Of a stretch of DNA of 54,080 bases, positions 1,295-31,190 are shown piece by piece. Position 1 is the stretch's first letter. Each line of letters opens with the position of its first letter. The stretch is taken from contig JBGSJS010000059.1 in the NCBI GenBank assembly GCA_041741735.1, positions 1 through 54,080 on the forward strand. Direction: 5' to 3'. The position numbers were made by a program, and so were the translations under genes. The notes beneath the pieces are model-generated. The model searched no databases, was not told where the DNA came from, and saw only the letters and a program-made list of their open reading frames with translations. This stretch comes from Desulfomonilaceae bacterium. Lineage in GTDB: Bacteria > Desulfobacterota > Desulfomonilia > Desulfomonilales > Desulfomonilaceae.

Positions 1295-2468
1295 TTACTT
1301 TCTCTCATTTCCAAGAAGTGGTATAAGCGCACGCCCGAGACGCTTCGGAAGACAGATGAAAGTAAACCTCCGACTTAAACATCCGGCTCTATAGGATGTG
1401 AGCGGAGATCTGAAGCCCCAGCGCGTTTGAACGGCCCTCACCGAGGTACATCAAGACCGTTGCTCGGAAACGTTCATCGCGCGACGCAACACTGCTTCAT
1501 CAATGTCGTCCTTGGGCCATGCGACATGAATGTCCAAATGCGCCCATACAATCGCTCCGGCTTACGAAAATGCCGAGCCGATCATCGTATGGACTGCGGC
1601 TGTTTTGTTAGGATTTGAGGACAGAAAATGAAAGGATCAAATGATGAGAACAGTCGTCGGGTCCGGGCCACCCGGAACCTTCGATCGGTCCTTACAAGCA
1701 AGGTTAGAGACTATAGGGGCCTTACCAAAGAAGAAGGAGCAAGCGGGCACTGAAGCAACGGCAAAGGCGTGAGGCAACCTTTCGTCACCACCAGCCAGTC
1801 TCTCACTATATCGCGTGACTCCATCCGTGTCGATGGATACATCCGTACAGTCGGGTCCGGCTGCATCGCCACGCTCACCAGGACAATGCGATGACGATTC
1901 GGTACACGGCGACGCCGCCTTGATTCGGATATTACCGTCCCGCTGGAAACACCAGACTGCCGGAAAGGTCCACAGCATGGCCAACAGCGAAGTCACTGTT
2001 ATCAAAGACACGTAGGATGCGCGTCGAATTGCCATGCCGTCTGGTTGCTCCGTCCAAGGAGAGATCGATTTTTCCCAGGCGAAGGGTTCGCCCCAAACAC
2101 CTACACTTTAATGAATATCGCGGAACGGCTTCTGTGTCAAGTGTCTTGTCAGTGGCGGCACAAGATGGGTGTCCGAAGAAGTTGCCTGTTAGGAAAAAAG
2201 TGTGGAAAAATAGGGTGATCTTATCTCAAAATCGTTATGCGTCGGGACTTGGCGCGGAGTGGGAGAATGCGGCTTCCTTGGCCTTACAATGCGGTATGGC
2301 GGTCATTTCTCAGTCCGCAGTCCACGAGTACGCTGAGGGACGGGAGGAGTTGGGGAATGCATGTTGTGGTCCACTCTCGGGATCCTGGGATGAAATTGAA
2401 GCCGTCCGCCTCACGCTGGTGATCAAGACACTTCGGAAATTCCCCGTCTCCTCAGACCGAGCGTAAAC

Positions 2469-2658
2469 TACAGTGCAGCTCTTTGAAATTCGCTGCATTC
2501 TTTGAGTTGAAGGCCAATGAGCCTTCGGTGACATCATCCCCGGAGATCGGCGCCTGTTTGAGGCTTGTGGCAGATCCGATAGGGGAGCGCAGAAGGCTAT
2601 CCATAGGATTCCTTCTGACCTCAGGTCTCGTTGCTTCCCTCAATCTCCAAAGCGCTCC
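2469..2658 (-). ncRNA. Copy A of a dispersed conserved ~200-230 nt element (putative structured leader RNA or miniature repeat); see findings.
   Basis: Reverse complement of the element seen at 14597-14825, 19768-19980 and 30981-31190. Shared blocks: GAGCGCTTTG..TTGnGG at the 5' end; CCnCTATCGGnnTGCCAnAAGyCTCAnnCAGGCG; a variable GC hairpin; GATCTCCGGnGAnnATG; GAAGGCTCATTGGCCTTCAACTCnAAnAATGCnGCGAATTTnAAnGAGCnGCAC at the 3' end. Confidence 0.4.
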
Positions 2659-11290: not shown

Positions 11291-11358
11291 ATGCAACGAC
11301 ATTTGGCATTGATTTTTCGGCCGGCGCCGGGTAGAATGACAACGCTGAGGTGATTGCA

Positions 11359-11619
11359 ATGAAACGTGTCGTGGTTGTTTGTTTGACCCTGATCGTGGCC
11401 CTTTCCGTGGGTGCGGCGGTCAGTCTCGCTCAAAGTCCGATGCCCGGTCCCGCCGCTGCCGGTCCGGTTCAAGCCCCACCTGTTTCAAAAGTTCACCCGA
11501 AGGCGGCGTACGGGTACGTTCCTCCTCCCCCCATCCTTCATACGTGGCCCGGTGGCTACAAGGTCATCATTCACGAGATGACCAATACCCTCATCGATCA
11601 TATTCTCGGCAAATACTAA
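11359..11619 (+). CDS. Small secreted Pro-rich protein (hypothetical).
   Basis: Signal peptide MKRVVVVCLTLIVALSVGAAVSLAQSP; GAGGTGA SD before the ATG. Confidence 0.4.
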   Translation: MKRVVVVCLTLIVALSVGAAVSLAQSPMPGPAAAGPVQAPPVSKVHPKAAYGYVPPPPILHTWPGGYKVIIHEMTNTLIDHILGKY

Positions 11620-12380
11620 TCCGCAGAGTGATGCGTCCGCAGAGTGATGCGTCCGCAGATGAAGAGGCAAAGCGCCTGGAGTTTCCAGAGGACTTTGCAG
11701 GGTGCGCCGTTGCCTCCGTACGTTTTCTTGTTCTTGAATCTGCGCAATCTGTGGATACTCTTGATCTTCAGACAGACTTCATCCGCAGATGACACAGATG
11801 GAAAGACAAAGGCTTAAGGTCTCCGGAGGCTATTACCGGAAGATGTGTATGAATAGGCCTGGTGTGGACACCTGTGTCGGCTCTTTTGCCTTCCTAATCT
11901 GCGTGTATCTGCGCAATCTGTGGATAGTCTTCTCTGGATTTTCCGAAAAGATCTCATCCGCAGATGACGCAGATGTCCACAGATGAAAAGACATAGGCAA
12001 CAGAAGTTTGCTGAGGACATTGCGGTCCTGTGCACTGTTGATGGCTTGGCGTGGGATAAGGCCGCCTCCGTAAGATCTTCTCTTCTCAAATCTGCGTGAA
12101 TCTGTGCAATCTGTGGATTCTCTTTTTCGGATTCTTGGGAAAGATTTGATCCGCAGATGACGGAGATGTTCACAGATGAAAAGACGAAGACAGTTGAAGT
12201 CTCCGGAGGCTTTTACCGGAAATGCGTATAAGCAGGCTTGGTTTGGACGTCTATGTAGGTCTTGTTGTTTTTGAGTCTGCGTGAATCCGGGCCATCTGTG
12301 GATTCATTTCTTCAGTGAAACAATCTCACCCACGGATGTCCCCGAGGTTCGTGGATGAGAAAACACAAAACGCTTGAACT
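11620..12380. repeat. Tandem array of ~4 units of a ~190-bp repeat, each with a conserved ~100-bp dyad-symmetric core; extends into the 5' region of the GxxExxY ORF.
   Basis: Core consensus: AATCTGCGTGTATCTGCGCAATCTGTGGATAGTCTTCTCTGGATTCTTCGGAAAGATTTCATCCGCAGATGTCACAGATGTCCGCAGATGGAAAGACA. Units begin near 11741, 11897, 12085 and 12270; the last is degenerate. The cores are separated by diverged ~90-bp linkers. Confidence 0.85.
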
Positions 12381-12732
12381 CTAGTCTAGGGCGGCCAAAA
12401 TTCAGCAGGAGTCCTCGCTTGAGATGTGTTGCCTTAAGGTAGTTCAGGAGCTGCGCTTCCTCGATTCCGGTGATCGCATTGAGTGCCTTCAATTCGACTA
12501 TCACCTCATTGTAGCAGACAAAATCGGCACGGTAGGAGCAGTTGAGCTGCTCGCCCTTGTAATAGACCGGCAACTCCACCTCGCGGGCGAATGGAATGGC
12601 TCGGGCCGACATTTCGATCGCAAGCGCGTGCTGATAAACGGCCTCCAGGAATCCTGCACCGAGCTGTCGATGAACCTCCATGGCCGCACCGATAATTGCG
12701 TGAGTCTGTTCGTCTCTTGCATCTGTACTCAT
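12304..12732 (-). CDS. GxxExxY family protein (PD-(D/E)XK-like), embedded in the repeat array.
   Basis: Start at MSTDARDEQTHAIIGAAMEVHRQLGAGFLEAVYQHALAIEM...VYYKGEQL...RADFVCYNEVIVELKAL...AQLLNYLKATHLKRGLLLNFG, a full match to the ~125-aa GxxExxY family. The upstream 76 codons of the track ORF are repeat-derived, so they are excluded. Confidence 0.7.
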   Translation of the reverse strand: MSTDARDEQTHAIIGAAMEVHRQLGAGFLEAVYQHALAIEMSARAIPFAREVELPVYYKGEQLNCSYRADFVCYNEVIVELKALNAITGIEEAQLLNYLKATHLKRGLLLNFGRPRLEFKRFVFSHPRTSGTSVGEIVSLKK

Positions 12733-12879
12733 CCGGGAAAAACCCAAATTCCTTTCTTGACCGGATGACGCCACCTCGGATAGGAGCGTTCTTATCCGTA
12801 GATTACGCAGATGATCGCCGCTGAGTAAAGAAGAAACCTTGGACATGGAGAGGCGAAGATCTCGTGATCGACCAGCGTC

Positions 12880-13300
12880 CTTTTGAGGCTGTGGGTTAGC
12901 TTCCGGATTCAGAGAGGTTTCATCCGCAGATGACACAGATGTCCGCAGATGAAAAGACAATGCGTTTGAAGCCGGGTCGAGAACAACTACAGTTTACGTG
13001 GACTTTCGCAACACACGTGTAACCACGCATTCGTTCCGGCTTCTTTAATCTGCGTGTATCTGCGTCATCTGTGGATACTCTTCTCTGGATTCTTCGGAAA
13101 GATTTCATCCGCAGATGTCACAGATGTCCGCAGATGGAAAGACAAGAGTGACTGAAGTCTCCGAAGGGCTTCTAGCGTCCGGCCAGGTCGTTGATGAATT
13201 TCCATCGCCTGACCGGAGATTCCGCGAGCTATTCTGCTTTTTGAATCCGCGTTGATTTGTACTGGTTCAGCGTGAATCGGACAAATCCGGTTTGGGTTTA
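12880..13300. repeat. Left copy of a ~350-400 bp direct repeat (two hairpin-core units plus a diverged linker) flanking the 13.3-18.8 kb segment.
   Basis: ~95% identical over ~350 bp to 18885-19265, including the stretch ...gaaagacaatgcgtttgaagccgggtcgagaaca(a/g)ctacagt(t/c)tacgtggactttcgcaacacacgtgtaaccacgcattcgttccggcttctttaatctgcgt.... Confidence 0.85.
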
Positions 13301-13540
13301 AGCTACTCCCGGCACCCTGTGTTCCGAGAGATTTGCCACGTGAAGAGACCCTGGGGCTCCGCCCCAGACCCCGGAGTTTTCTGAGGCATCAGGGGTCTAT
13401 CGCCCGATGGGTTTGGGAAGGGACGCGGAAGCAATGTCCTCCACGCCCTGCCATCGGTTCGATGAGCCCCACCGGGTTATTCCTCGACGGGTTGCCCTCC
13501 GGCAGAGCCCGTCTCCGCTTCACCCGGCACGATTATTTCA

Positions 13541-14238
13541 TCACGGGTGGGGCTCATTTGTCAACTCCTCGTGACGACGCTGCTTTCTCGTTTCGCGGGC
13601 TGCTTCGAGCTTTCGGTCACGAGCCGCAAGGATCTCAGGCGCTCGACCTTCCAGCATGGCTTTCGGCGTCACGTAGCCGATGGCGCTGTGCAGACGTACC
13701 CCGTTGTAATGCTCGATGTAACCTGCAACCAGGCGCTTGGCGTCCTCAAGTGAGAGCGGCGTGCCCGGCCGGATGCATTCACGCTTGAGGGTGCCGTGCC
13801 ACCGTTCGATTTTGCCGTTGCTCTGCGGGTAGTAGGGGGAAGTCCGGTCGGACCAGTACCGAACGTAATCTACCACCTCATCGCGTTTGTCCGGCTCCAC
13901 CCAAGACCTGTTCAGCTTTCCCCAAGACTTTTTTTTAGTGCCACGTGAGACTCCATGATCTCCGCGATCACCTCGTCCTTGTGGGCGATCTTGACCTTGA
14001 GTGCTCTGTTTTCCTTCTCCAGACTTCGTTCCTTGCCGTCCTTGCCTCGCTCGAAGGCGGCAGCCCCGTTCTCGAAGAACTCCTTCTGCCACTTGTAAAA
14101 CAACGTCGGGTGAAGACCCTGCTCGTCGCACAGGTCCGAGACCGGAACCTTCTCAACCAGATGCCGCCTGAGAATCCGCACCTTGTCCTCGGCTGAAAAA
14201 CTCCTCCTCTTTCTGGTCACGGCCAATTCCTCCTTCAC
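13541..14238 (-). mobile_element. Decayed IS3-family element: intact OrfA, a -1 slippery site, and an OrfB that keeps only the C-terminal part of the rve/DDE core.
   Basis: OrfA (complement 13912-14220, GTG start with AAGGAGGAA SD) reads MTRKRRSFSAEDKVRILRRHLVEKVPVSDLCDEQGLHPTLFYKWQKEF..., the IS3/IS911 HTH transposase. A8G slippery run lies at 13929-13936 (minus strand AAAAAAAAG). The OrfB frame continues ...SPYYPQSNGKIERWHGTLKRECI... (C-terminal integrase-core motif), but only ~35 aa separate the frameshift from it, so the D,D part of DDE is deleted. Terminal inverted repeats were not confidently located; a 13-bp inverted repeat TGAGCCCCACCGG/CCGGTGGGGCTCA lies at 13449-13552. Confidence 0.65.
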
Positions 14239-14596
14239 GGTTATATGCTAACCGATCATGGGGAATTGTCCAATTCCGACTGAAGCAAAACAAACAAACT
14301 TCATGTGCGGCAGCGGTTTTTTTGTTTTTTCTTCAATGATTTTTTGTCACGTGCGAGGTAGCATCCCGGGGCGGCTTCAACCTTTCCGTTGGCTGGACTC
14401 TATAGGGCTTTGGCAGTGTTCCGCGCCGCCGCGGGTCTTTTTGATTGACTGGGAACCAGTGGTAAAGTACGCTCAGAAAGAGGAAACAAAGCAGGCTTTC
14501 TCGGAAGGGTGATGACGGTTCTGACTTCCACCAGCCTTTTGGGGATACACATGGGCCCTTTTCTGGGTCAGAGGAACTATTCCGCGACCTATATTG

Positions 14597-14825
14597 GAGC
14601 GCTCTGAAAATTGCGGGAGAACGAAGCAAAACCATTGGCTGATTCGGAAGCATACGGATGGGCCGCCTGCGCTCCACTATCGGATGTGCCATAAGTCTCA
14701 GGCAGTCGGCCATGCTCTTGGATCGACCGAGCCCATCTCCAGCGATAATGCGGTCCAAGGCTCATTGGCTTTCAACTCGAACAATGCCGCGAATTTAAAT
14801 GAGCGGCACTATAGCACGGCGCAAA
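14597..14825 (+). ncRNA. Copy B of the dispersed conserved element, as the 5' leader of the radical SAM gene.
   Basis: See findings. Ends ~85 nt upstream of the rSAM ATG (14912). Confidence 0.45.
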
Positions 14826-14911
14826 CAGGCCGGGAACTGCACGGGGCCCCATAATTCCGGATTCCTGAAGTAATCGGATTTGTATCATGCTTCCATGGGG
14901 AGACGCGTTTC

Positions 14912-16501
14912 ATGAGAGTCCTGCTTATAAGCCCTAAATTCCCGTTGTCGTACTGGACGATGGAGCCCTCTTGCAGGATCTCCGGCAGCAAAACCTTCAT
15001 GCCTCCTCTCGGTCTGCTCACTGTGGCGGCCTTGCTGCCCCGGGAGTGGGAACTTCGGCTGGCAGATCTGAACGTGCGGAGCCTGCGAACCGATGACTGG
15101 ACTTGGGCCGATATAGTCATGATTTCAGGCATGTTCATACAAAGAGAAGGTGTGCTGGCAGTTCTCCAACAAGGCAAGAACCGCGGAAAGACCGTTGTTG
15201 TGGGAGGCCCGTACGCCACTTCTATGCCGTATGAGGTCCTGGAAGCCGGGGCCGATTTTGTCGTCGTGGGAGAAGGCGAAAACACCGTTCCATTTTTGCT
15301 TGCGGCTCTCCATGAGGGCAAGGCAAAAGCAGTGGTCAAGAACGAAGTCAAGCCGGAAATGAGCACGTCACCCGTTCCACGGTTTGATCTGCTTCGACTT
15401 GAAGATTACGCACTTCTCGCAATTCAGACTTCGCGTGGTTGCCCGTTTAACTGTGAGTTCTGCGATATTGTGAATCTCTTCGGCCGGAAGCCCCGCTACA
15501 AGAATCCAGACCAAGTCCTTCTCGAGCTGGATGCCTTGCACAATCTTGGATGGAGATCAGAGGTCTTTATTAGCGATGACAATTTTATTGGTAATCCCCA
15601 GCGGGCCGAGGCCATACTTGAGAAGATAATTCCATGGACAAGAGACAAAGTTGAAGAATTCACATTTTCAACACAGGTTTCGCTAAATCTGGCTAGGCAC
15701 CCCAAGCTGATGGACCTCATGTATCGAGCAAACTTCAGAGGGGTTTTCAGCGGTATTGAGACCCCTGACGAAGAAGTGCTCTTACGTAACCGAAAGTACC
15801 AAAACATAAGAAACCCGGCTGCGGAATCCGTTGCGAAAATCCAGAGCCATGGCATATCAGTGGTCGGCAGTTTCGTGATCGGGTTCGACGGTGAGAAAGA
15901 GGGCGCCGGTGACCGGATATGCTCTTTAGTAGAGCAAGCGGACATCCCTATCGTCATGATCGAGTTGCTGCGGGCGTTTCCCAATACCGACCTGTACGAC
16001 CGGCTTAAACGAGAGAATCGCCTCATCCAGGTGAGGAACATTGGCACCGGCATTGAAAGCGAGAGTCTGAACTATATACCCACGAGGCCTGAGGAGCAAA
16101 TATTGGCGGAGTATGCCACGTCGTGGGACTATCTGTACGACCGTTCACGTTTCCTGGCTCGTGCTTACAGGCATTTCCTCGCACTACCTCCTGTAGCCAA
16201 AAGTCCCCGGCAGTCAAACAAGTACCTTATCGCCCAGAATGGCCTGTCTTCGCGAGGGCGAGGCAGAAGAGGCTTCAACGAGGCTGTTGGTTTCACCCTT
16301 CTTGTCTGGTGGCAAGGCTTGAGCTCCAGGTGCAGACGTCAATGGTGGACCCAGCTTGTCGGTATGTGTTGGAAGAACCCGACCCGAGTTCGAGAGTATC
16401 TTATTGTAGCGGGATTCAGCGAGCACATGTTTCGGTTAAGAGGAATTATCGGAAAGAGATCTGAAGATGCAAGGAAAAACCAAAGCTCCACTGGAGGTTG
16501 A
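14912..16501 (+). CDS. B12-binding domain-containing radical SAM protein (class B rSAM with a DUF4070-like C-terminal region).
   Basis: N-terminal cobalamin-binding Rossmann region (LLISPKFP...PPLGLLTVAALL...VVVGGPYAT). The CPFNCEFC CxxxCxxC radical-SAM motif falls inside the ALLAIQTSRGCPFNCEFCDI context. 529 aa. The C-terminal ~90 aa are Arg-rich/low-complexity and overlap the convergent MNT gene, so the 3' end may be shorter. Confidence 0.85.
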   Translation: MRVLLISPKFPLSYWTMEPSCRISGSKTFMPPLGLLTVAALLPREWELRLADLNVRSLRTDDWTWADIVMISGMFIQREGVLAVLQQGKNRGKTVVVGGPYATSMPYEVLEAGADFVVVGEGENTVPFLLAALHEGKAKAVVKNEVKPEMSTSPVPRFDLLRLEDYALLAIQTSRGCPFNCEFCDIVNLFGRKPRYKNPDQVLLELDALHNLGWRSEVFISDDNFIGNPQRAEAILEKIIPWTRDKVEEFTFSTQVSLNLARHPKLMDLMYRANFRGVFSGIETPDEEVLLRNRKYQNIRNPAAESVAKIQSHGISVVGSFVIGFDGEKEGAGDRICSLVEQADIPIVMIELLRAFPNTDLYDRLKRENRLIQVRNIGTGIESESLNYIPTRPEEQILAEYATSWDYLYDRSRFLARAYRHFLALPPVAKSPRQSNKYLIAQNGLSSRGRGRRGFNEAVGFTLLVWWQGLSSRCRRQWWTQLVGMCWKNPTRVREYLIVAGFSEHMFRLRGIIGKRSEDARKNQSSTGG

Positions 16502-16739
16502 GATACTTGGGGTTAACTACATCCACCTTCCTCTCGCCGAGCAGAGATGACAGCTCTTCCTCAATATCCACGATTTCCCACCCGGGAGTGTGACCCGGAG
16601 CAAACTCGACAAGGAGATCCACGTCGCTGTCCGGTCTGAAATCACCTCGAACGGCCGAGCCAAAGCAGGCCATCCACCGAATATGACGGCTGCGGCAGAA
16701 TGCCGTGAGCTTTTCCCGGGGCACATTGAGGTGCATCAT
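16446..16739 (-). CDS. MNT-type nucleotidyltransferase (type VII/II TA antitoxin-like, Pol-beta superfamily); no HepT partner recognised.
   Basis: MMHLNVPREKLTAFCRSRHIRWMACFGSAVRGDFRPDSDVDLLVEF is the GS..RG...SD.DLLV minimal-NTase signature. Start at the first ATG (GGAGA SD upstream) rather than the upstream GTG used by the track. Confidence 0.65.
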   Translation of the reverse strand: MMHLNVPREKLTAFCRSRHIRWMACFGSAVRGDFRPDSDVDLLVEFAPGHTPGWEIVDIEEELSSLLGERKVDVVNPKYLNLQWSFGFSLHLQISFR

Positions 16740-17009
16740 CTTATCGGGTCTCCTGCGTGCTGGAAGTCTCACTCACTTGGATGCATTGATTGAATAGCAC
16801 GGCAGAGAATCACCATGATACGGCACCTCTCGCTGATGCCCTCTCTAACCGAGCTAGGCAAAAAGCAAGCCGTTCCCAATAGCTGTCCGGGGCTTGCACG
16901 TTTCTCTTTCCAACATCGAAGGAATGATCTAATGTTGAAGGAAAGATGCTAGTCTAAAGGGTTCGAGGGCCCGGGCTCGTACGCCAGAGGTAAGTTAAGG
17001 AGAAGTATC

Positions 17010-17744
17010 ATGGAAAATTCCGAACTGGATACTGTCCTCGAAGAGAGGATGCGTAAAGTATTGCGGCACTGGTCCCTCATATACGGAACGCCTCTAGCGA
17101 TAATCCTATTCGGGCTCAATCTGGCCTGGACCGAACTAGTTAGGCCTTCCATTATCAGGGCATATGCAAATGAAGCTGAAGCTGCGAGGGACCGTACCAT
17201 TGCAACTTCAAGAGAGACAAAGGAGATTCTCTTGCAGACCAAAGCTGACTTACTCGGAATTGAATCCATGAAGAAGCAGGTTCAAGAATCTTTGAAGGCA
17301 ATGAAAACTGGCAAGTTGGCGCAAGAAGTTGCTAAGGAACTTGCTGCCAATGACCGTTTCACTGAGAAATTCAAGACATTGAGCGCCAAGGTCAACAAGG
17401 TTCGAGAAGATGTCCACAACTCGATGGAGCAGCTCCGGGATGATATGAGGCTTGGATTTCGTTATGGGGTCATATCAGGAACTTCGTCGGGTACGCAAAC
17501 GGAAACGCACAAATTTGATTTTCCAGTGAAGAACTCCTGGGTGGAGCTTCCTTTTGTGAATTGCGTAGACTCGATTAGAATAGTTAATACAAAACAGTCG
17601 GAAGTTACTGTGGAAATCGTTTACCCTAAGGAAAGGCGCTGCAATGTGATAGGGTATTACAAGGTGTGGGCTACTTCATTATGGTCCGTTGGGTCCATCA
17701 ATTCGACGATGCGTTCGCTTTCTTCTCCGAAGGGCACCCAATGA
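17010..17744 (+). CDS. Hypothetical membrane-anchored coiled-coil protein in an AT-richer island.
   Basis: 244 aa. One N-terminal TM helix (LIYGTPLAIILFGLNLAW), a central coiled coil (EAEAARDRTIATSRETKEILLQTKADLLGIESMKKQVQESLKAMKTG...) and a C-terminal beta-rich region. AAGGAGAAG SD. Base composition is visibly AT-richer than neighbouring genes. Confidence 0.55.
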   Translation: MENSELDTVLEERMRKVLRHWSLIYGTPLAIILFGLNLAWTELVRPSIIRAYANEAEAARDRTIATSRETKEILLQTKADLLGIESMKKQVQESLKAMKTGKLAQEVAKELAANDRFTEKFKTLSAKVNKVREDVHNSMEQLRDDMRLGFRYGVISGTSSGTQTETHKFDFPVKNSWVELPFVNCVDSIRIVNTKQSEVTVEIVYPKERRCNVIGYYKVWATSLWSVGSINSTMRSLSSPKGTQ

Positions 17745-17953
17745 CCGCGCACTCGGCCTATGGCAGAGGGTAGACCGGTGCAAGTCCCTGTTGAAAAGAA
17801 TGTAACGTTTGATTTTGCCTCACGGGGTCCGTAACCGCTGTGTCCAAGTTGCGGCAAGACAAATTGAGTTTCTAAACCCATGGAACCATGTCGTGAACGA
17901 GGGCACTCCGGCCAATTTGGCCTGAGACAAGGGGAGTATCGGCTCCGGATTGT

Positions 17954-18349
17954 TTACCTCGCTGCCTTTCCCACGCTCTTGTCGGTCTCCAGCGTGTACT
18001 CGGCAATGAGCACTTCGGAGGAAATACCGAGGCCAGCGCAGAGCTTGCGAATCATGTCAATACTCAGCCCTCGTTTTCGATTCAGAACTTCGGCAACCCG
18101 GCCACGATGTCCGATAAAGGGTTCAAGATCCTTCCGGGTCAGTTCCATCTGTTCCATACGAAACTTGATCGCTTCGATCGGGTCCGGAGGGTCGATGGGG
18201 TAGTGCTTCTCTTCATAAGCCTCCACGAGAATCGAGAGTACATCCAGCTCATCGGACTCCCGTGTACCGGGTTCCGCGTCCCAGATCTCTTCAATTCTTG
18301 CCAAAGCAGCGTCGTAATCTTTTTCGGTTCTGATGGGTTTGACGTCCAT
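17954..18349 (-). CDS. higA: HigA-family antitoxin (HTH-XRE).
   Basis: MDVKPIRTEKDYDAALARIEEIWDAEPGTRESDELDVLSILVEAYEEKHYPI...IKFRMEQMELTRKDLEPFIGHRGRVAEVLNRKRGLSIDMIRKL matches HigA downstream of HigB. GGAGGTG SD 6 nt before the ATG at 18347-18349. Confidence 0.8.
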   Translation of the reverse strand: MDVKPIRTEKDYDAALARIEEIWDAEPGTRESDELDVLSILVEAYEEKHYPIDPPDPIEAIKFRMEQMELTRKDLEPFIGHRGRVAEVLNRKRGLSIDMIRKLCAGLGISSEVLIAEYTLETDKSVGKAAR

Positions 18350-18389
18350 GATCGCACCTCCGGGGTCGAAGGATACGCTCGATACCTTA

Positions 18390-18680
18390 GCCAGTAAGGG
18401 CATCGACCTCATCGTATTGCGCGTGAGCTCCGACAAATCGAATGAATACTAAGCCCTTGTCATATCTAATAGCCACTATCAAGCGGTAGTCATTGCCTTA
18501 TATTTTGAAGATCGCCCGGTCCTTCCCGATGGTACGAGCAGTGCGGAAATACCCTGTAATGTCAATCGGTGCTCTCCACTGAGCCTTCTTGGCTTCTCGG
18601 CACCAAGCACGCAACGGTTGTTCCGCATCTGGATGCTGAGCCCAAAACTCCCGGAGCGTTCTCACGGCAATGATTCTCAT
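18390..18680 (-). pseudogene. higB: HigB-family toxin interrupted by an in-frame TAA (nonsense) at codon 61.
   Basis: MRIIAVRTLREFWAQHPDAEQPLRAWCREAKKAQWRAPIDITGYFRTARTIGKDRAIFKI-TAA-GNDYRLIVAIRYDKGLVFIRFVGAHAQYDEVDALTG. The reading frame continues perfectly through the TAA at 18498-18500, sitting where HigB homologues have Lys (IFNIKGNDYRL), i.e. an AAA/AAG to TAA change. Confidence 0.7.
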
Positions 18681-18799
18681 AGACGGATTTTACTACGATC
18701 CCGCTTTGGGTGCAAGCCTGCTCGTGTTCTGATCCTCAACTGACACGGATGTTCACAGACGGCAAGAGGAGGGCAACTGAAGTTTGCGGAGCTTTAACC

Positions 18800-19265
18800 C
18801 GAGAGGTGTGTGAACAGACGGGGCTGTGCCTCCCATGCGGGCTTTCTTGCCTTCCTGATCTGCGCTAATCGGCGCAATCTGTGGATAGTCTTCTCTGGAT
18901 TCTTCGGAAAGATTTCATCCGCAGATGTCACAGATGTCCACAGATGGAAAGACAATGCGTTTGAAGCCGGGTCGAGAACAGCTACAGTCTACGTGGACTT
19001 TCGCAACACACGTGTAACCACGCATTCGTTCCGGCTTCTTTAATCTGCGTCAATCGGCTCAATCTGTGGATAGTTCTCTCTGGATTTCTCGGAAAGATTT
19101 CATCCGCAGATGTCACAGATGTCCGCAGATGGAAAGACAAGAGCGACTGAAGTCTCCGAAGGGCTTCTAGCGGCCGGCCAGGTCGTTGATGAATCTCCAT
19201 CGCCTGACCGGAGATTCCGCGCGCTATTCTGCCTTTTGAATCCGCGTTGATCTGCGGATTCTTTT
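18800..19265. repeat. Right copy of the ~350-400 bp direct repeat (two hairpin-core units).
   Basis: See 12880-13300. Cores begin near 18846 and 19036, with a degenerate third at ~19225. Confidence 0.85.
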
Positions 19266-19306
19266 CCTTGCTTTCGGAATTGCAGGTGAAGGCTGAGACT
19301 CGCCCC

Positions 19307-19519
19307 TCAGCCGAGCTTGATTTTTCCCGAAAGAAGATTGTCGTAAAATGCACACGACGTTCTGCACTTCGCAATCTTATCGTCGTACGATCCTTGTTTC
19401 TCGCCTCTGCACTCGGTCCCGGTAACTTTATAGCAGTCAAATCCGTGGTCCGGGTACGCGGGGCAGTCTTTTTCTCTCCCGCATTTCAAGAAATCCCAGC
19501 ACTTTCCGCTCTGATTCAT
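19307..19519 (-). CDS. Small Cys-rich protein with a CW...CG...CP motif (hypothetical metal-binding).
   Basis: 70 aa from MNQSGKCWDFLKCGREKDCPAYPDHGFDCYKVTGTECRGEKQGSYDDKIAKCRTSCAFYDNLLSGKIKLG. GGAGGGGGAA SD right before this ATG. Eight Cys. Resembles the CW-type Cys modules seen N-terminal to deltaproteobacterial sensors, but that is recalled from memory and not verified. Confidence 0.5.
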   Translation of the reverse strand: MNQSGKCWDFLKCGREKDCPAYPDHGFDCYKVTGTECRGEKQGSYDDKIAKCRTSCAFYDNLLSGKIKLG

Positions 19520-19767
19520 TTCCCCCTCCTGCATCGGCTTGTTCAGATTTTGTGCCGTCGGTCCCTCAATCCGAAGTCCTGACGGCCAACCTATCTCTCG
19601 ATCCTCCAGGTGTGGAAGGTACCCTACCACAACGGTCGATGCGCCTTCCCCAAGCACCTCGACAAGTTTCCTAGGCTTTCACCACGGGAAGATAACGGGT
19701 AATCCGAGAAATTCTGTACATTATTGTCCACATTTCCTTTCTTTTCGTCAACATAAGTTTTTATAAC

Positions 19768-19980
19768 GGAGCGCTTTGAAAATTGCGGCAAACGGAGAGC
19801 GCCCTGGAGTCATAAGGAAGCCTACGGATAGCCTCCTTCGCTCCACTATCGGGCTGCCATAAGTCTCAAGCAGGCGTCGCTAATCCGGGAAAAAATGCGC
19901 CGATCTTCGGCGACAAGGTTGTCGAAGGCTCATTGGCCTTCAACTCGAACAATGCCGCGTATTCGCGGAACGATAGCACG
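19768..19980 (+). ncRNA. Copy C of the dispersed conserved element, as the 5' leader of the downstream Cys-motif gene.
   Basis: See findings. Confidence 0.45.
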
Positions 19981-20082
19981 TATGACCGTTTCGCTTTCAT
20001 AGCTATTCATCACCCGTTCGTTTTGACTCTTGGCCGTCCGATGATTAGGATTAGACCAGATCAAGCAACGGAGGTGATCGCC

Positions 20083-20442
20083 ATGGTCAATACCACGGAA
20101 GAATTCATTGCCGACTGCGGATGCAATCCCGTTCCGCCGACGGGAGACGGTGACGTGTGCGGAACCTGCGCACCCAAATTGGCTTTGTCGGTGGAGGAAG
20201 AGGCCGTGCTCACGCAGATGAGGGCTCTCAAGGAACGGGTTCGTCCCATTGCCGACAGGATGAAGCAGATCCGGGAGGATCTCGCCGGGTCGGTTGAGGG
20301 AGACCGGACAGTACTGCAAAGCGAGTGGGGTGAGCTATCGGGCCAACTGGACGCCCTGAGAGGCCAGTGGAAAGAATGGGAATTCAAGCTGGACGAGGCC
20401 ATCCACCGAAAGCTCGTTATGCTGGGGCACCGGGAAGCGTGA
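20083..20442 (+). CDS. Hypothetical protein with an N-terminal CGC...CGTC four-Cys motif and a C-terminal coiled coil.
   Basis: MVNTTEEFIADCGCNPVPPTGDGDVCGTCAPK... then a heptad-rich tail. GGAGGTGAT SD 7 nt upstream. The track ORF starts 150 nt earlier, inside the conserved element, and was trimmed. Confidence 0.55.
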   Translation: MVNTTEEFIADCGCNPVPPTGDGDVCGTCAPKLALSVEEEAVLTQMRALKERVRPIADRMKQIREDLAGSVEGDRTVLQSEWGELSGQLDALRGQWKEWEFKLDEAIHRKLVMLGHREA

Positions 20443-20719
20443 ACATATGCGCGTACGGCAGTTTTAAGGCACGTGCGCGGCGGGTTTTGTCTCCGGGCGG
20501 GTGAAGTGCGCGAATCGAAGCGAAGGCCGGGCAAGAAGGGATGGCAGGACGAACGAGGCTTTCTCCCTAGGGATCGCGTTTCATGTCCCGGTTCCTCTTG
20601 TTAAAGAAGTCTTTAATAGCATCGGTGTCTATTAAAACACGGACGCGCCTTTCTTAATAGGGCGGACTCCCTTGCTGGACCATGATTACGTTACGGCTCC
20701 TTATTCTTGCCGATAAGCG

Positions 20720-30980: not shown

Positions 30981-31190
30981 GTGCCGCTCATTAAAATTCG
31001 CGGCGTTCTTCGAGCTGAAGGCCAATGAGCCTTCGACGACATTGTCGCCGGAGATCGGCGCAATTTTTCCGACAGGAGCAGCGCCTTCTTGAGACTTATG
31101 GCAGACCCTATAGTGAAGCGTTAGAAGCCATCCAAAGGGTCCCTGATGACACCACGGCTCTTTTCGTTTGCCGCAGTTTGCAAACCGCCC
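30981..31190 (-). ncRNA. Copy D of the dispersed conserved element, as the 5' leader of the STAS gene.
   Basis: See findings. Confidence 0.45.

What the first reader, a model, noticed from the sequence alone, without database searches (positions are those of the whole stretch)
12880..19265. ~350-bp direct repeats (made of the hairpin units) bracket a 5.5-kb accessory cassette: IS3 remnant, B12-radical SAM, MNT, AT-rich membrane protein, HigBA
12895-13290 and 18885-19265 are ~95% identical over ~350 bp. The enclosed segment holds a decayed IS, a leader-element copy plus a B12-rSAM gene, an orphan MNT nucleotidyltransferase, an AT-richer hypothetical gene and a HigB/HigA pair, all typical mobile-island cargo. 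This looks like insertion into, or recombination within, the repeat array. The direct repeats could mediate excision or deletion of the cassette.
Basis: seen in the sequence. Interest (0 to 1): 0.55.

Follow-up and report, generated by a model that had tools for sequence, protein, structure and literature searches.

The report
Repeat-flanked mosaic islet in palindrome array
The two 352-bp direct repeats are real, but they are a recently copied pair of units from a palindromic repeat array next to a GxxExxY nuclease gene, and the DNA between them is a patchwork of separately gained, partly decayed accessory genes rather than one mobile cassette.

Summary
Observation confirmed with refined limits. 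Window 12908-13259 and 18903-19254 are 92.9% identical over 352 bp with no indels. Each copy is two adjacent ~185-nt palindromic units (A-B and A'-B').

The units belong to an array found only at 11620-13259 and 18716-19259. The array contains a GxxExxY (PD-(D/E)XK) gene.

Comparative genomics changes the interpretation:
- In distant Desulfomonilaceae relatives the two conserved flanking genes (sec89, hyp119) are adjacent.
- One relative (L084) has only GxxExxY plus 1-2 units between them.
- The closest relative (L081) has the same split array with different cargo.
- So the inserted feature is the whole 8.4-kb stretch 11620-20020, and its content turns over piecemeal.

Window and L081 share only an MNT fragment, HigA, unit R0 and unit B'. 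The block IS3 remnant + rSAM (13260-16495) is window-specific and truncates MNT. HigB carries a premature stop.

The A-B/A'-B' cores are 96-97% identical. Orthologous units differ by 8-17% between the two genomes, so the duplication is younger than the cargo backbone.

No collapsed (empty) form, integrase, tRNA or att-like site was found. Repeat-mediated deletion is mechanistically possible but unobserved. The direct-repeat finding itself is ordinary. The GxxExxY-associated palindrome array is the more interesting part.

The parts
11350..11619 (+). sec89: small secreted protein and conserved left flank. The array begins at the base after its stop codon.
   Evidence: Orthologs lie directly downstream of the ADH gene in L003-L008, L081, L084 and L085.
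11620..13259 (.). Left half of the palindromic-unit array. Units: U0 11620-11780, U1 11781-11955, U2 11956-12148, U3 12149-12327, G unit with GxxExxY 12328-12793, short unit U4s 12794-12921, A 12922-13106, B 13107-13259. B's last arm is clipped.
   Evidence: Each unit folds as a long imperfect palindrome (z = -4.8 and -6.4).
12304..12747 (-). GxxExxY / PDDEXK_3 gene. It sits between a degenerate R arm and a degenerate L arm, in the place of a unit core.
   Evidence: PF13366 at 1.4e-42 and TIGR04256 at 1.5e-45. Orthologs occupy the same position in L081 and L084.
12908..13259 (+). Left copy of the 352-bp direct repeat (units A-B). This is the derived copy.
13260..14427 (-). IS3-family remnant and its flanks: orfA 13912-14238 is intact, and orfB 13541-14131 retains only the rve_3 C-terminus. 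No terminal inverted repeats were found.
14428..16499 (+). rSAM block: B12-binding radical SAM + DUF4070 gene (14912-16501) with its native upstream region. It is homologous at about 90% nt to L232-L235. It is window-lineage-specific at this locus.
14590..14818 (+). Copy of the ~228-nt 'leader' element. It is an insertion relative to the rSAM locus of L232.
16446..16772 (-). MNT-type nucleotidyltransferase with no HepT partner. True MNT sequence runs only from 16496 upward; the last ~17 codons come from the rSAM block.
   Evidence: L081 keeps the true C-terminus. The junction is confirmed by the independent contig L236.
17010..17744 (+). 244-aa hypothetical protein with low GC (0.465), one borderline hydrophobic segment, and near-ORFan status.
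   Evidence: It has 5 relatives among 1.84 billion representatives. L081 has a DUF5677 gene in this position.
17954..18352 (-). HigA-type HTH antitoxin, intact. It is shared with L081 at 90% nt identity.
18390..18680 (-). HigB toxin pseudogene with an in-frame TAA at codon 61 (18498-18500).
   Evidence: It is absent from L081, which has a UPF0175 gene there.
18716..18916 (.). Unit R0. It is not duplicated and lies between the cargo and A'. It is orthologous to L081 14991-15175.
18903..19254 (+). Right copy of the 352-bp direct repeat (units A'-B'). B' is orthologous to the L081 unit next to the two-CW gene, so this is the parental-like copy.
19307..19519 (-). Small two-CW-domain protein. It is part of the island: present in L081, absent from L084 and L004-L006.
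   Evidence: NF045718 at 1.3e-10.
19762..19980 (+). Second 'leader' element copy, inside the island's right edge.
   Evidence: It is absent from the sec89-hyp119 spacers of L004-L006.
20021..20442 (+). Conserved right flank: promoter-like TTGACT-17-TAGGAT (20023-20051) and the hyp119 gene (20083-20442).
   Evidence: Homology with L084 resumes at 20021.

Best explanation
The region between the conserved genes sec89 and hyp119 (window 11620-20020) is a lineage-specific, fast-evolving intergenic islet. Each step below is marked shown or inferred.

1. Seeding. The islet began with a GxxExxY (PD-(D/E)XK) gene carried inside a long palindromic unit whose arms are three tandem ~10-nt repeats (TCCGCAGATG). 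The graded series of relatives is shown; the seeding order is inferred.

2. Array growth. ORF-less ~185-nt units of the same build multiplied into a BIME-like tandem array (shown). Accessory genes accumulated between an L arm and the next R arm (shown in two genomes).

3. Piecemeal cargo turnover (shown). An ancestral backbone (MNT, HigA, unit R0, unit B', two-CW gene) is shared with the closest relative. In the window lineage a block made of an IS3 element plus a relocated B12-rSAM gene was joined in, which cut off the MNT C-terminus and the tip of unit B. Other modules (hyp244, HigB) differ from those in the relative. Several genes are decaying.

4. Origin of the direct repeats. They are two copies of one two-unit block. 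After the split from that relative, the right-hand block A'-B' was copied to the left edge of the cargo (shown that the copies are younger than the split, and that the right copy is closer to the ortholog). The likely mechanism is ectopic gene conversion or break repair that started in the shared arm or linker homology and ended in a non-homologous junction at 13259/13260 (inferred).

5. Consequence (inferred from general recombination knowledge, not observed). The repeats are a by-product of array recombination, not the attachment sites of a cassette. As 352-bp direct repeats with perfect runs of 55-61 bp they could still support RecA-dependent deletion of the 6-kb interval.
For: Empty and graded sites:
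- In L004, L005 and L006, sec89 and the hyp119 ortholog are about 100-600 bp apart, with no repeats.
- L084 has only one short unit + GxxExxY + a partial unit, 766 bp in all.
- L081 (ADH 91% aa, flanks about 86% nt) has a 4.85-kb version with a left array, cargo, R0, B' and the two-CW gene.

Mosaic cargo:
- The only cargo DNA shared by the window (W) and L081 (K) is W16496-16574 = K13058-13136 (MNT) and W17957-18365 = K14123-14530 (HigA, 90%).
- L081 keeps the MNT C-terminus that the window lacks.
- rSAM homology to L232 spans W14428-16499, and the gene sits in three other contexts elsewhere.
- HigB has a premature stop, and HigA is frameshifted in L081.

Age and direction of the repeat:
- Core identities are A/A' 97% and B/B' 96%. 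The orthologous pairs are W_B2/K_B2 83%, W_B/K_B2 79%, R0 85% and U1 92%.
- The A core occurs only in the window, in its two copies.
- The left end of the repeat falls at a unit boundary in the linker. The right end of the left copy is a clipped arm abutting unrelated DNA.

Other points:
- Both genomes place the cargo between an L arm and an R arm.
- The assembly is sound: L236 is 100% identical to W15478-18179, and L081 was assembled independently with the same architecture.
- GC3 of islet genes is 0.51-0.62 against 0.68-0.75 in the flanks.
Against: - Only two informative relatives (L081, L084) exist, and both are 9-17% diverged. The order of events and the ancestral state of unit A' cannot be fixed (lost in L081, or gained in the window lineage).
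- The copying mechanism is inferred from end-points only.
- The left A-B copy could instead have arrived together with the IS3-rSAM block from another array locus.
- The L081 unit next to its cargo (K_c) is only weakly B-like (64-66%). An old flanking duplication that was later homogenised in the window lineage is therefore not excluded.
- No direct evidence links the GxxExxY protein to the repeats.
Confidence: 0.6

Rival explanations
1. The 5.6-kb segment plus one repeat copy is a discrete element. It entered by Campbell-type homologous recombination between an A-B block on a circular donor and the chromosomal A-B block, which produced the flanking direct repeats. It can leave the same way.
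For: The architecture [A-B]-cargo-R0-[A'-B'] is what single-crossover integration predicts. The perfect runs of 55-61 bp exceed typical minimal processing segments.
Against: L081 shares the right part of the cargo (MNT, HigA, R0) in the same order without the A-B duplication. The cargo backbone therefore predates the repeat pair. The left copy ends in a clipped arm, not in a clean homology boundary. No collapsed site, circular junction or second copy of the block was found.
Confidence: 0.1
2. The left A-B copy was imported together with the IS3-rSAM block (12906-16495) from another palindrome array, in this genome or a foreign one. One crossover fell in array homology and the other join was illegitimate, inside MNT. 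The repeat pair then exists only because both arrays carried A-B-type units.
For: Relative to L081, everything from the start of A to 16495 is window-specific and contiguous. IS3 and rSAM are clearly relocated DNA.
Against: The rSAM loci L232-L235 carry no CAGATG repeats. The A and B cores were found nowhere else among 236 fetched loci. At the core sites where B and B' differ, B' is closer to the L081 ortholog (83% against 79%), which fits local copying as well.
Confidence: 0.17
3. The hairpin units are site-specific recombination sites (attC-like). The locus would then be an integron-like cassette array that captures genes through a dedicated recombinase.
For: The units are imperfect palindromes of attC-like size class. 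They separate short segments and accessory genes, including toxin-antitoxin genes.
Against: No integrase or recombinase lies within 10 kb on either side in the window, L081 or L084, and none appears among the top Pfam families of the other window ORFs. The arms lack RYYYAAC/GTTRRRY cores. Cargo genes lie on both strands. Cargo modules are not individually separated by units; five genes lie between B and R0.
Confidence: 0.04
4. The repeat pair is an assembly artefact: a chimeric join or duplicated repeat in a metagenome-assembled contig.
For: The window is a metagenomic contig, and tandem repeats are error-prone to assemble.
Against: The copies differ at 25 positions and sit in different unique contexts. 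An independent assembly from another sample (L081) has the same split-array layout. A Logan contig is 100% identical across the rSAM/MNT/hyp244/HigA junctions.
Confidence: 0.03

Closest known systems
REP/BIME clusters and REPIN-RAYT systems (Bertels & Rainey 2011, PMC3116915; PMC3337134)
   Same: Both are extragenic imperfect palindromes arranged in alternating orientation with two kinds of spacer, as in BIME-2 clusters. In both, a single nuclease or transposase-type gene sits between inverted copies of the repeat, and ORF-less copies far outnumber the gene. The arm motif is in >120 metagenome loci, of which only 7 of 146 fetched have a GxxExxY gene.
   Different: The associated gene is a PD-(D/E)XK GxxExxY protein of unknown function (PMC3424549), not a Y1 (IS200/IS605-like) transposase. 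The units are ~185 nt with arms made of three ~10-nt iterons. In this genome the units are clustered at one locus (one array in 54 kb) rather than dispersed. Mobility has not been shown.
MITEs derived from an autonomous element by internal deletion
   Same: ORF-less units share both arms and linkers with the gene-bearing unit. Their cores next to the R arm still translate to relics such as RPGFKRIVF and DFRRFVF, compared with the gene's C-terminus RLEFKRFVF.
   Different: There are no target-site duplications, and the units lie head-to-tail in one array. Nucleotide similarity of the cores to the gene ends is not significant by BLAST. No transposase is involved.
Chromosomal hotspots or islets of accessory and defence genes between conserved core genes
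   Same: The core flanks are conserved. The content differs between close relatives and includes toxin-antitoxin and MNT modules, IS remnants, pseudogenes and low-GC3 genes.
   Different: Here the hotspot coincides with, and appears to have been seeded by, a palindromic repeat array. There is no tRNA, integrase or att site.
Integron cassette arrays
   Same: Both have hairpin-forming repeats interspersed with accessory genes.
   Different: There is no IntI, no attC core sites, mixed gene orientation, and several genes per interval.

Membership tests
Site-specifically integrated genomic island (att direct repeats) | An integrase or recombinase gene at one end | tested here: not met
   The only mobile-element protein is a decayed IS3. 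No integrase lies within +/-10 kb in L081 or L084, and none appears among the top 25 Pfam families of 35 other window ORFs.
Site-specifically integrated genomic island (att direct repeats) | Insertion at a tRNA/tmRNA or other defined att site, with short direct repeats at the exact island ends | tested here: not met
   There are no tRNA or tmRNA genes in the window. The island ends are at 11620 and 20020, not at the 352-bp repeats.
Site-specifically integrated genomic island (att direct repeats) | An empty site in relatives with a single repeat copy | tested here: not met
   Empty sites exist for the whole 11620-20020 stretch (L004-L006) but contain no repeat at all. No genome has the A-B pair collapsed to one copy.
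Composite transposon | Two copies of the same IS flanking the cargo | tested here: not met
   There is a single truncated IS3 at 13541-14238 with no terminal inverted repeats. The flanking repeats encode no transposase.
Integron | IntI integrase, attI, and attC sites with RYYYAAC/GTTRRRY cores | tested here: not met
REP/BIME-RAYT system | Extragenic palindromes in alternating orientation that flank the associated gene | tested here: met
   For GxxExxY genes in the fetched loci, 5 of 8 have a flanking inverted-repeat score at or above the 99th percentile of random controls. In L001 the repeat sequence differs but the build is the same.
REP/BIME-RAYT system | The associated gene is a Y1 HUH transposase (RAYT) | tested here: not met
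   The gene is PDDEXK_3 / TIGR04256.
REP/BIME-RAYT system | Many dispersed copies within one genome | tested here: inconclusive
   There is only one array in the 54-kb window and one in the 21 kb of L081. The whole genome was not available. The arm motif is widespread across metagenomes.
HigBA type II toxin-antitoxin | A HigB_toxin-domain gene upstream of an HTH antitoxin, both intact | tested here: not met
   The domains are present: PF09907 at 1.7e-26, HTH_3, and PADLOC PD-Lambda-2_A/B. HigB has a premature TAA at codon 61.
MNT-HepT (type VII TA) | An MNT gene with a downstream HepT/HEPN partner | tested here: not met
   The NTP_transf_2 domain is present. There is no HepT, and the C-terminus is replaced at 16496 by the rSAM block.
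IS3 family insertion sequence | orfA plus a full DDE orfB, and terminal inverted repeats | tested here: not met
   orfA is intact. orfB matches only positions 306-367 of 369 of the IS3 model. No inverted repeats were found.
Class B (B12-binding) radical SAM enzyme | An N-terminal B12-binding domain plus a radical SAM core | tested here: met
   PF02310, PF04055 and PF13282 all match. No specific NCBIfam equivalog reached its cut-off.

The most novel reading that the evidence does not exclude
GxxExxY (PDDEXK_3) genes together with their iteron-armed palindromes form a REPIN/RAYT-like partnership built on a PD-(D/E)XK nuclease instead of a Y1 transposase. In this reading the nuclease or the palindromes create breaks, so that such arrays act as self-renewing hotspots. 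Units are copied between array halves, as with the A-B pair, and foreign genes are captured between them.
Probability: 0.2. Interest if true: 0.7.

Novelty: new variant of a known kind. Interest (0 to 1): 0.4.

Why it matters
The direct-repeat 'cassette' by itself is an ordinary outcome of recombination in a repeat-rich accessory region.

The locus does offer a clean natural series in one bacterial family: empty site, then GxxExxY plus one unit, then arrays with different cargo. This series shows a palindromic repeat array associated with a PD-(D/E)XK gene of unknown function seeding a hotspot of gene gain, loss and decay between two conserved core genes.

The available literature lists PDDEXK_3/GxxExxY as 'function unknown' (PMC3424549). 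Only three papers in the library mention GxxExxY at all.

If the nuclease-palindrome link is functional, it would be a second, mechanistically different example of the REP/RAYT type of genome-resident repeat system. It would also give a testable role to a very widespread protein family.

Tried and rejected
- Rfam: no family at gathering threshold in the whole window. At E<=10 there were only noise hits for the hairpin units and the leader element.
- tRNA/tmRNA: none found.
- Exact-protein look-ups: the ADH (long start) and the two-CW protein returned nothing. The closest hyp119 relative (P0242, 87%) has no retrievable DNA, so unit A' could not be polarised with a third lineage.
- Genome-contig scan: gave only relatives at <=72% aa identity, none with the repeat.
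- Promoter/terminator scan: no excess over shuffles. The units are not obviously terminators.
- Small-gene association of the arm motif: ORFs within 200 bp of the motif have the same median size as distant ORFs (230 against 210 aa). A cassette-boundary idea based on neighbours was therefore dropped.
- ORF-less cores against the ends of the GxxExxY unit: blastn-short was not significant. Only peptide-level relics remain.
- IS3 terminal inverted repeats: none found.
- PDB sequence search with the GxxExxY protein: no hit.
- PADLOC: no hit for GxxExxY, hyp244, two-CW, hyp119 or the L081 DUF5677 protein.
- Integron, composite-transposon and tRNA-island readings: rejected (see the membership tests).


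Full report
OBSERVATION

The reported direct repeat exists. The repeat finder returned a two-copy family at 12908-13207 / 18903-19202 with 93% identity and no gaps. A pairwise alignment and a self-BLAST of the window extend it to 12908-13259 / 18903-19254. That is 352 bp at 92.9% identity, E = 1.6e-148.

A direct count gives 25 mismatches (16 transitions, 9 transversions) and no indels. The longest perfect runs are 61, 55 and 33 bp. Eleven of the 25 mismatches are packed into 13056-13093.

The stated 95% holds only for the unit cores.

Each copy is two adjacent ~185-nt units (A-B and A'-B'). The arm motif ATCCGCAGATGNCNCAGATG, with up to 3 mismatches, occurs 13 times against 0.06 expected, all in 11737-13126 and 18917-19121.

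A third unit, R0 (18716-18916), lies between the cargo and A'. It is not part of the duplication.

GENES BETWEEN THE REPEATS

Pfam and NCBIfam confirm the following:
- An IS3-family remnant: orfA is intact, and orfB is reduced to the last ~60 residues of the integrase core.
- A B12-binding radical SAM protein with DUF4070 (14912-16501).
- An MNT-type nucleotidyltransferase (16446-16772).
- A 244-aa protein with no family.
- A HigB/HigA pair.

Several are damaged:
- HigB has an in-frame TAA at codon 61.
- The MNT loses similarity to true MNT sequence at 16496, exactly where the rSAM block ends. The relative L081 still carries the genuine MNT C-terminus.
- The IS has no detectable terminal repeats.

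The 244-aa protein has GC 0.465 against 0.556 for the window. Its one hydrophobic stretch is only borderline. It has just 5 relatives among 1.84 billion representative proteins.

GC3 of the islet genes is 0.51-0.62. In the flanking core genes it is 0.68-0.75.

WHAT THE UNITS ARE

Each unit has four parts:
- An R arm of three tandem ~10-nt repeats (TCCGCAGATG).
- A ~95-nt core with its own hairpin.
- An L arm that is the inverted complement of the R arm.
- A ~30-nt linker whose halves also pair.

A unit folds as one long imperfect palindrome: -140 kcal/mol with z = -4.8 on the plus strand, and z = -6.4 on the minus strand.

The GxxExxY / PDDEXK_3 gene (12304-12747, minus strand) sits between a degenerate R arm and a degenerate L arm. 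That is the position a unit core would occupy.

The ORF-less cores, read on the gene's strand next to the R arm, still translate to relics such as RPGFKRIVF and DFRRFVF. The gene's C-terminus is RLEFKRFVF. This is suggestive of derivation by internal deletion. It is not significant at the nucleotide level.

A 48%-identical GxxExxY gene in another Desulfomonilaceae contig (L001) is bracketed by a 29-45-nt inverted repeat of different sequence but the same iteron build. Among eight full-length GxxExxY genes in all fetched loci, five have a flanking inverted-repeat score at or above the 99th percentile of 400 random controls.

The arm motif itself is very widespread. Most occurrences are stand-alone R-arm/L-arm palindromes. 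Only 7 of 146 loci have a GxxExxY gene. The unit cores are lineage-specific.

No Rfam family matches. In the literature held here, PDDEXK_3 is listed as function unknown with multiple horizontal transfers (PMC3424549), and GxxExxY is mentioned only in passing.

The layout has alternating-orientation palindromes, two spacer types, a nuclease-type gene between inverted copies, and ORF-less copies in excess. It is closest to BIME clusters and REPIN/RAYT systems (PMC3116915, PMC3337134), but with a different protein family.

COMPARATIVE GENOMICS

The organism is a Desulfomonilaceae bacterium. The best genome-collection relatives of the adjacent alcohol-dehydrogenase-like gene are 67-72% identical at the amino-acid level.

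- L004, L005, L006: the order is ADH, sec89, hyp119. Only ~100-600 bp separate the last two, and there is no repeat.
- L084 (ADH 83% aa): sec89 and hyp119 are separated by 766 bp holding one short unit, the GxxExxY gene and a partial unit.
- L081 (ADH 91% aa, flanks about 86% nt): the gap is 4.85 kb. It holds a left array with GxxExxY, then cargo, then R0, B', the two-CW gene, a leader-element copy and hyp119.

Homology between the window and L084 stops at the sec89 stop codon (11619) and resumes at 20021, just before a conserved promoter-like TTGACT-17-TAGGAT. The unit of insertion relative to an empty site is therefore 11620-20020 (8.4 kb), not the 5.6 kb between the repeats.

THE CARGO IS A MOSAIC

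Between the array halves, the window and L081 share only 79 bp of MNT (W16496-16574 = K13058-13136) and HigA (W17957-18365 = K14123-14530, 90%).

L081 differs as follows:
- A DUF5677 gene sits where the window has the 244-aa gene.
- A UPF0175 gene sits where the window has HigB.
- HigA is frameshifted.
- Nothing corresponds to the IS3 remnant or the rSAM gene.

The rSAM gene with 160 bp of native upstream DNA (W14428-16499) is about 90% identical at the nucleotide level to genes in L232/L233, L234 and L235. There it has three unrelated sets of neighbours and no CAGATG repeats.

An independent Logan contig (L236) is 100% identical to W15478-18179. The rSAM/MNT and neighbouring junctions are therefore not assembly errors.

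At least three separate replacement events distinguish two genomes whose flanks are collinear.

AGE AND ORIGIN OF THE REPEAT PAIR

With the arms removed, A/A' are 97% identical and B/B' are 96% identical. Orthologous units between the window and L081 are 79-92% identical:
- W_B2/K_B2: 83%
- W_B/K_B2: 79%
- R0: 85%
- U1: 92%

Non-orthologous units are 50-66% identical (whole-unit values are).

The A core occurs only in the window, twice. L081 has three other units (a, b, c) where the window has A-B, and it has R0-B' without A' on the right.

B' is the positional ortholog of the L081 unit next to the two-CW gene. It is closer to that unit than B is. So the right copy looks parental and the left copy derived, and the duplication (or its last homogenisation) postdates the split from L081.

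The shared cargo backbone predates that split. The repeats therefore did not arise by insertion of the cargo.

The left end of the duplicated block lies at a unit boundary in the linker. The left copy's right end is an L arm clipped 7 nt short and joined to unrelated DNA next to the IS3 remnant.

I infer ectopic gene conversion or break repair between the two array halves, primed in arm/linker homology and ending in an illegitimate join. This may have been the same event that brought in the IS3-rSAM block. Import of A-B together with that block from another array cannot be excluded (rival 2).

MECHANISM AND CONSEQUENCES

Shown:
- The array and its cargo are lineage-specific.
- The content turns over in pieces.
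- The repeat pair is young.

Inferred:
- The long palindromes, or a nuclease acting on them, make this spacer break-prone. Repair then shuffles units and occasionally joins in foreign DNA.

Possible but unobserved:
- RecA-dependent recombination between the 352-bp repeats would delete 5,995 bp and leave U4s-A-B'-two-CW.
- The 7% divergence would lower the rate of that recombination. This rests on general knowledge of homeologous recombination.
- No relative or alternative contig shows that product.

ALTERNATIVES

- Campbell-type cassette: contradicted by the L081 backbone.
- Integron-like system: there is no integrase within 10 kb in three genomes, and none among the top Pfam families of 35 other window ORFs. 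There are no attC cores, gene orientation is mixed, and five genes lie in one interval.
- tRNA/att island: there are no tRNA genes.
- Composite transposon: there is a single truncated IS.
- Assembly artefact: contradicted by L081 and L236.

VERDICT

The repeat-bracketed 'cassette' is an ordinary product of recombination in a hypervariable islet. The more unusual feature is the GxxExxY-associated, BIME-like palindrome array that seeded the islet, which has no described counterpart in the sources I could search. Interest 0.4; new variant of a known kind.

Noticed in passing
window 14590-14818(+), 19762-19980(+), 30981-31188(-), 2468-2658(-); L081 15900-16075; L085 2176-2365: The 'leader element' is a conserved ~228-nt element with four copies in the window (70-81% identical). 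Relative to the rSAM locus of L232 it is a clean insertion between W14589 and W14843, so it looks like a small mobile or inserted element rather than an ancestral rSAM leader. It has no Rfam match even at E<=10. RNAalifold finds three hairpins but only two compensatory pairs.
   Followed up: partly
L232 10001-11653, L234 10001-11569, L235 1106-2686: Orthologs of the B12-rSAM gene (88-91% nt identity) sit in three unrelated neighbourhoods: ECH|rSAM|DsbA, cyclase|rSAM|DMT_6, and ankyrin|rSAM|hypothetical. Homology stops within tens of bases of the gene ends, so this single gene relocates often.
   Followed up: partly
L001 2096-2581: A 48%-identical GxxExxY gene is bracketed by a 29-45-nt inverted repeat made of tandem ~9-10-nt subrepeats (CGCGGAGAG/CGCAGAGAA). 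The sequence differs from the window's arms but the build is the same.
   Followed up: partly
Most occurrences are stand-alone palindromes between ordinary genes. Only 7 of 146 loci have a GxxExxY gene.
   Followed up: partly
L097 6992-7691: A GxxExxY gene (62% identical) is flanked on both sides by direct tandem 39-nt repeats carrying the same CGCAGATG motif. This architecture differs from the inverted arms seen elsewhere.
   Followed up: no
window 12792-12802, 11915-11925 and other arm ends: The arm ends read TTATCCG(C/T)AGA / TCTGTGGATA, which matches the DnaA-box consensus TTATCCACA at 8 of 9 positions. This could be coincidence and was not tested.
   Followed up: no
L081 16896-17573 compared with window 20443-20719: L081 has a HepT-MNT pair inserted between hyp119 and the rhodanese/ferritin-like gene. 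The window lacks it. This is a second small indel hotspot just outside the islet.
   Followed up: no
window 19307-19519(-); L081 15390-15602(-): A 70-aa two-CW-domain protein (NF045718) is part of the islet in the window and in L081. It is absent from L084 and from more distant relatives.
   Followed up: no
window 17954-18680; L081 14111-14890: HigA is conserved at 90% nt identity between the two genomes, but its upstream partner differs: a HigB pseudogene in the window and a UPF0175 gene in L081. HigA itself is frameshifted in L081. The window's HigB and HigA match PADLOC PD-Lambda-2_A and the first 125 positions of PD-Lambda-2_B.
   Followed up: partly
window 17010-17744: The 244-aa protein is close to an ORFan. 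It has 5 hits at E<=1e-3 among 1.84 billion representative proteins, the best at 57% identity.
   Followed up: yes
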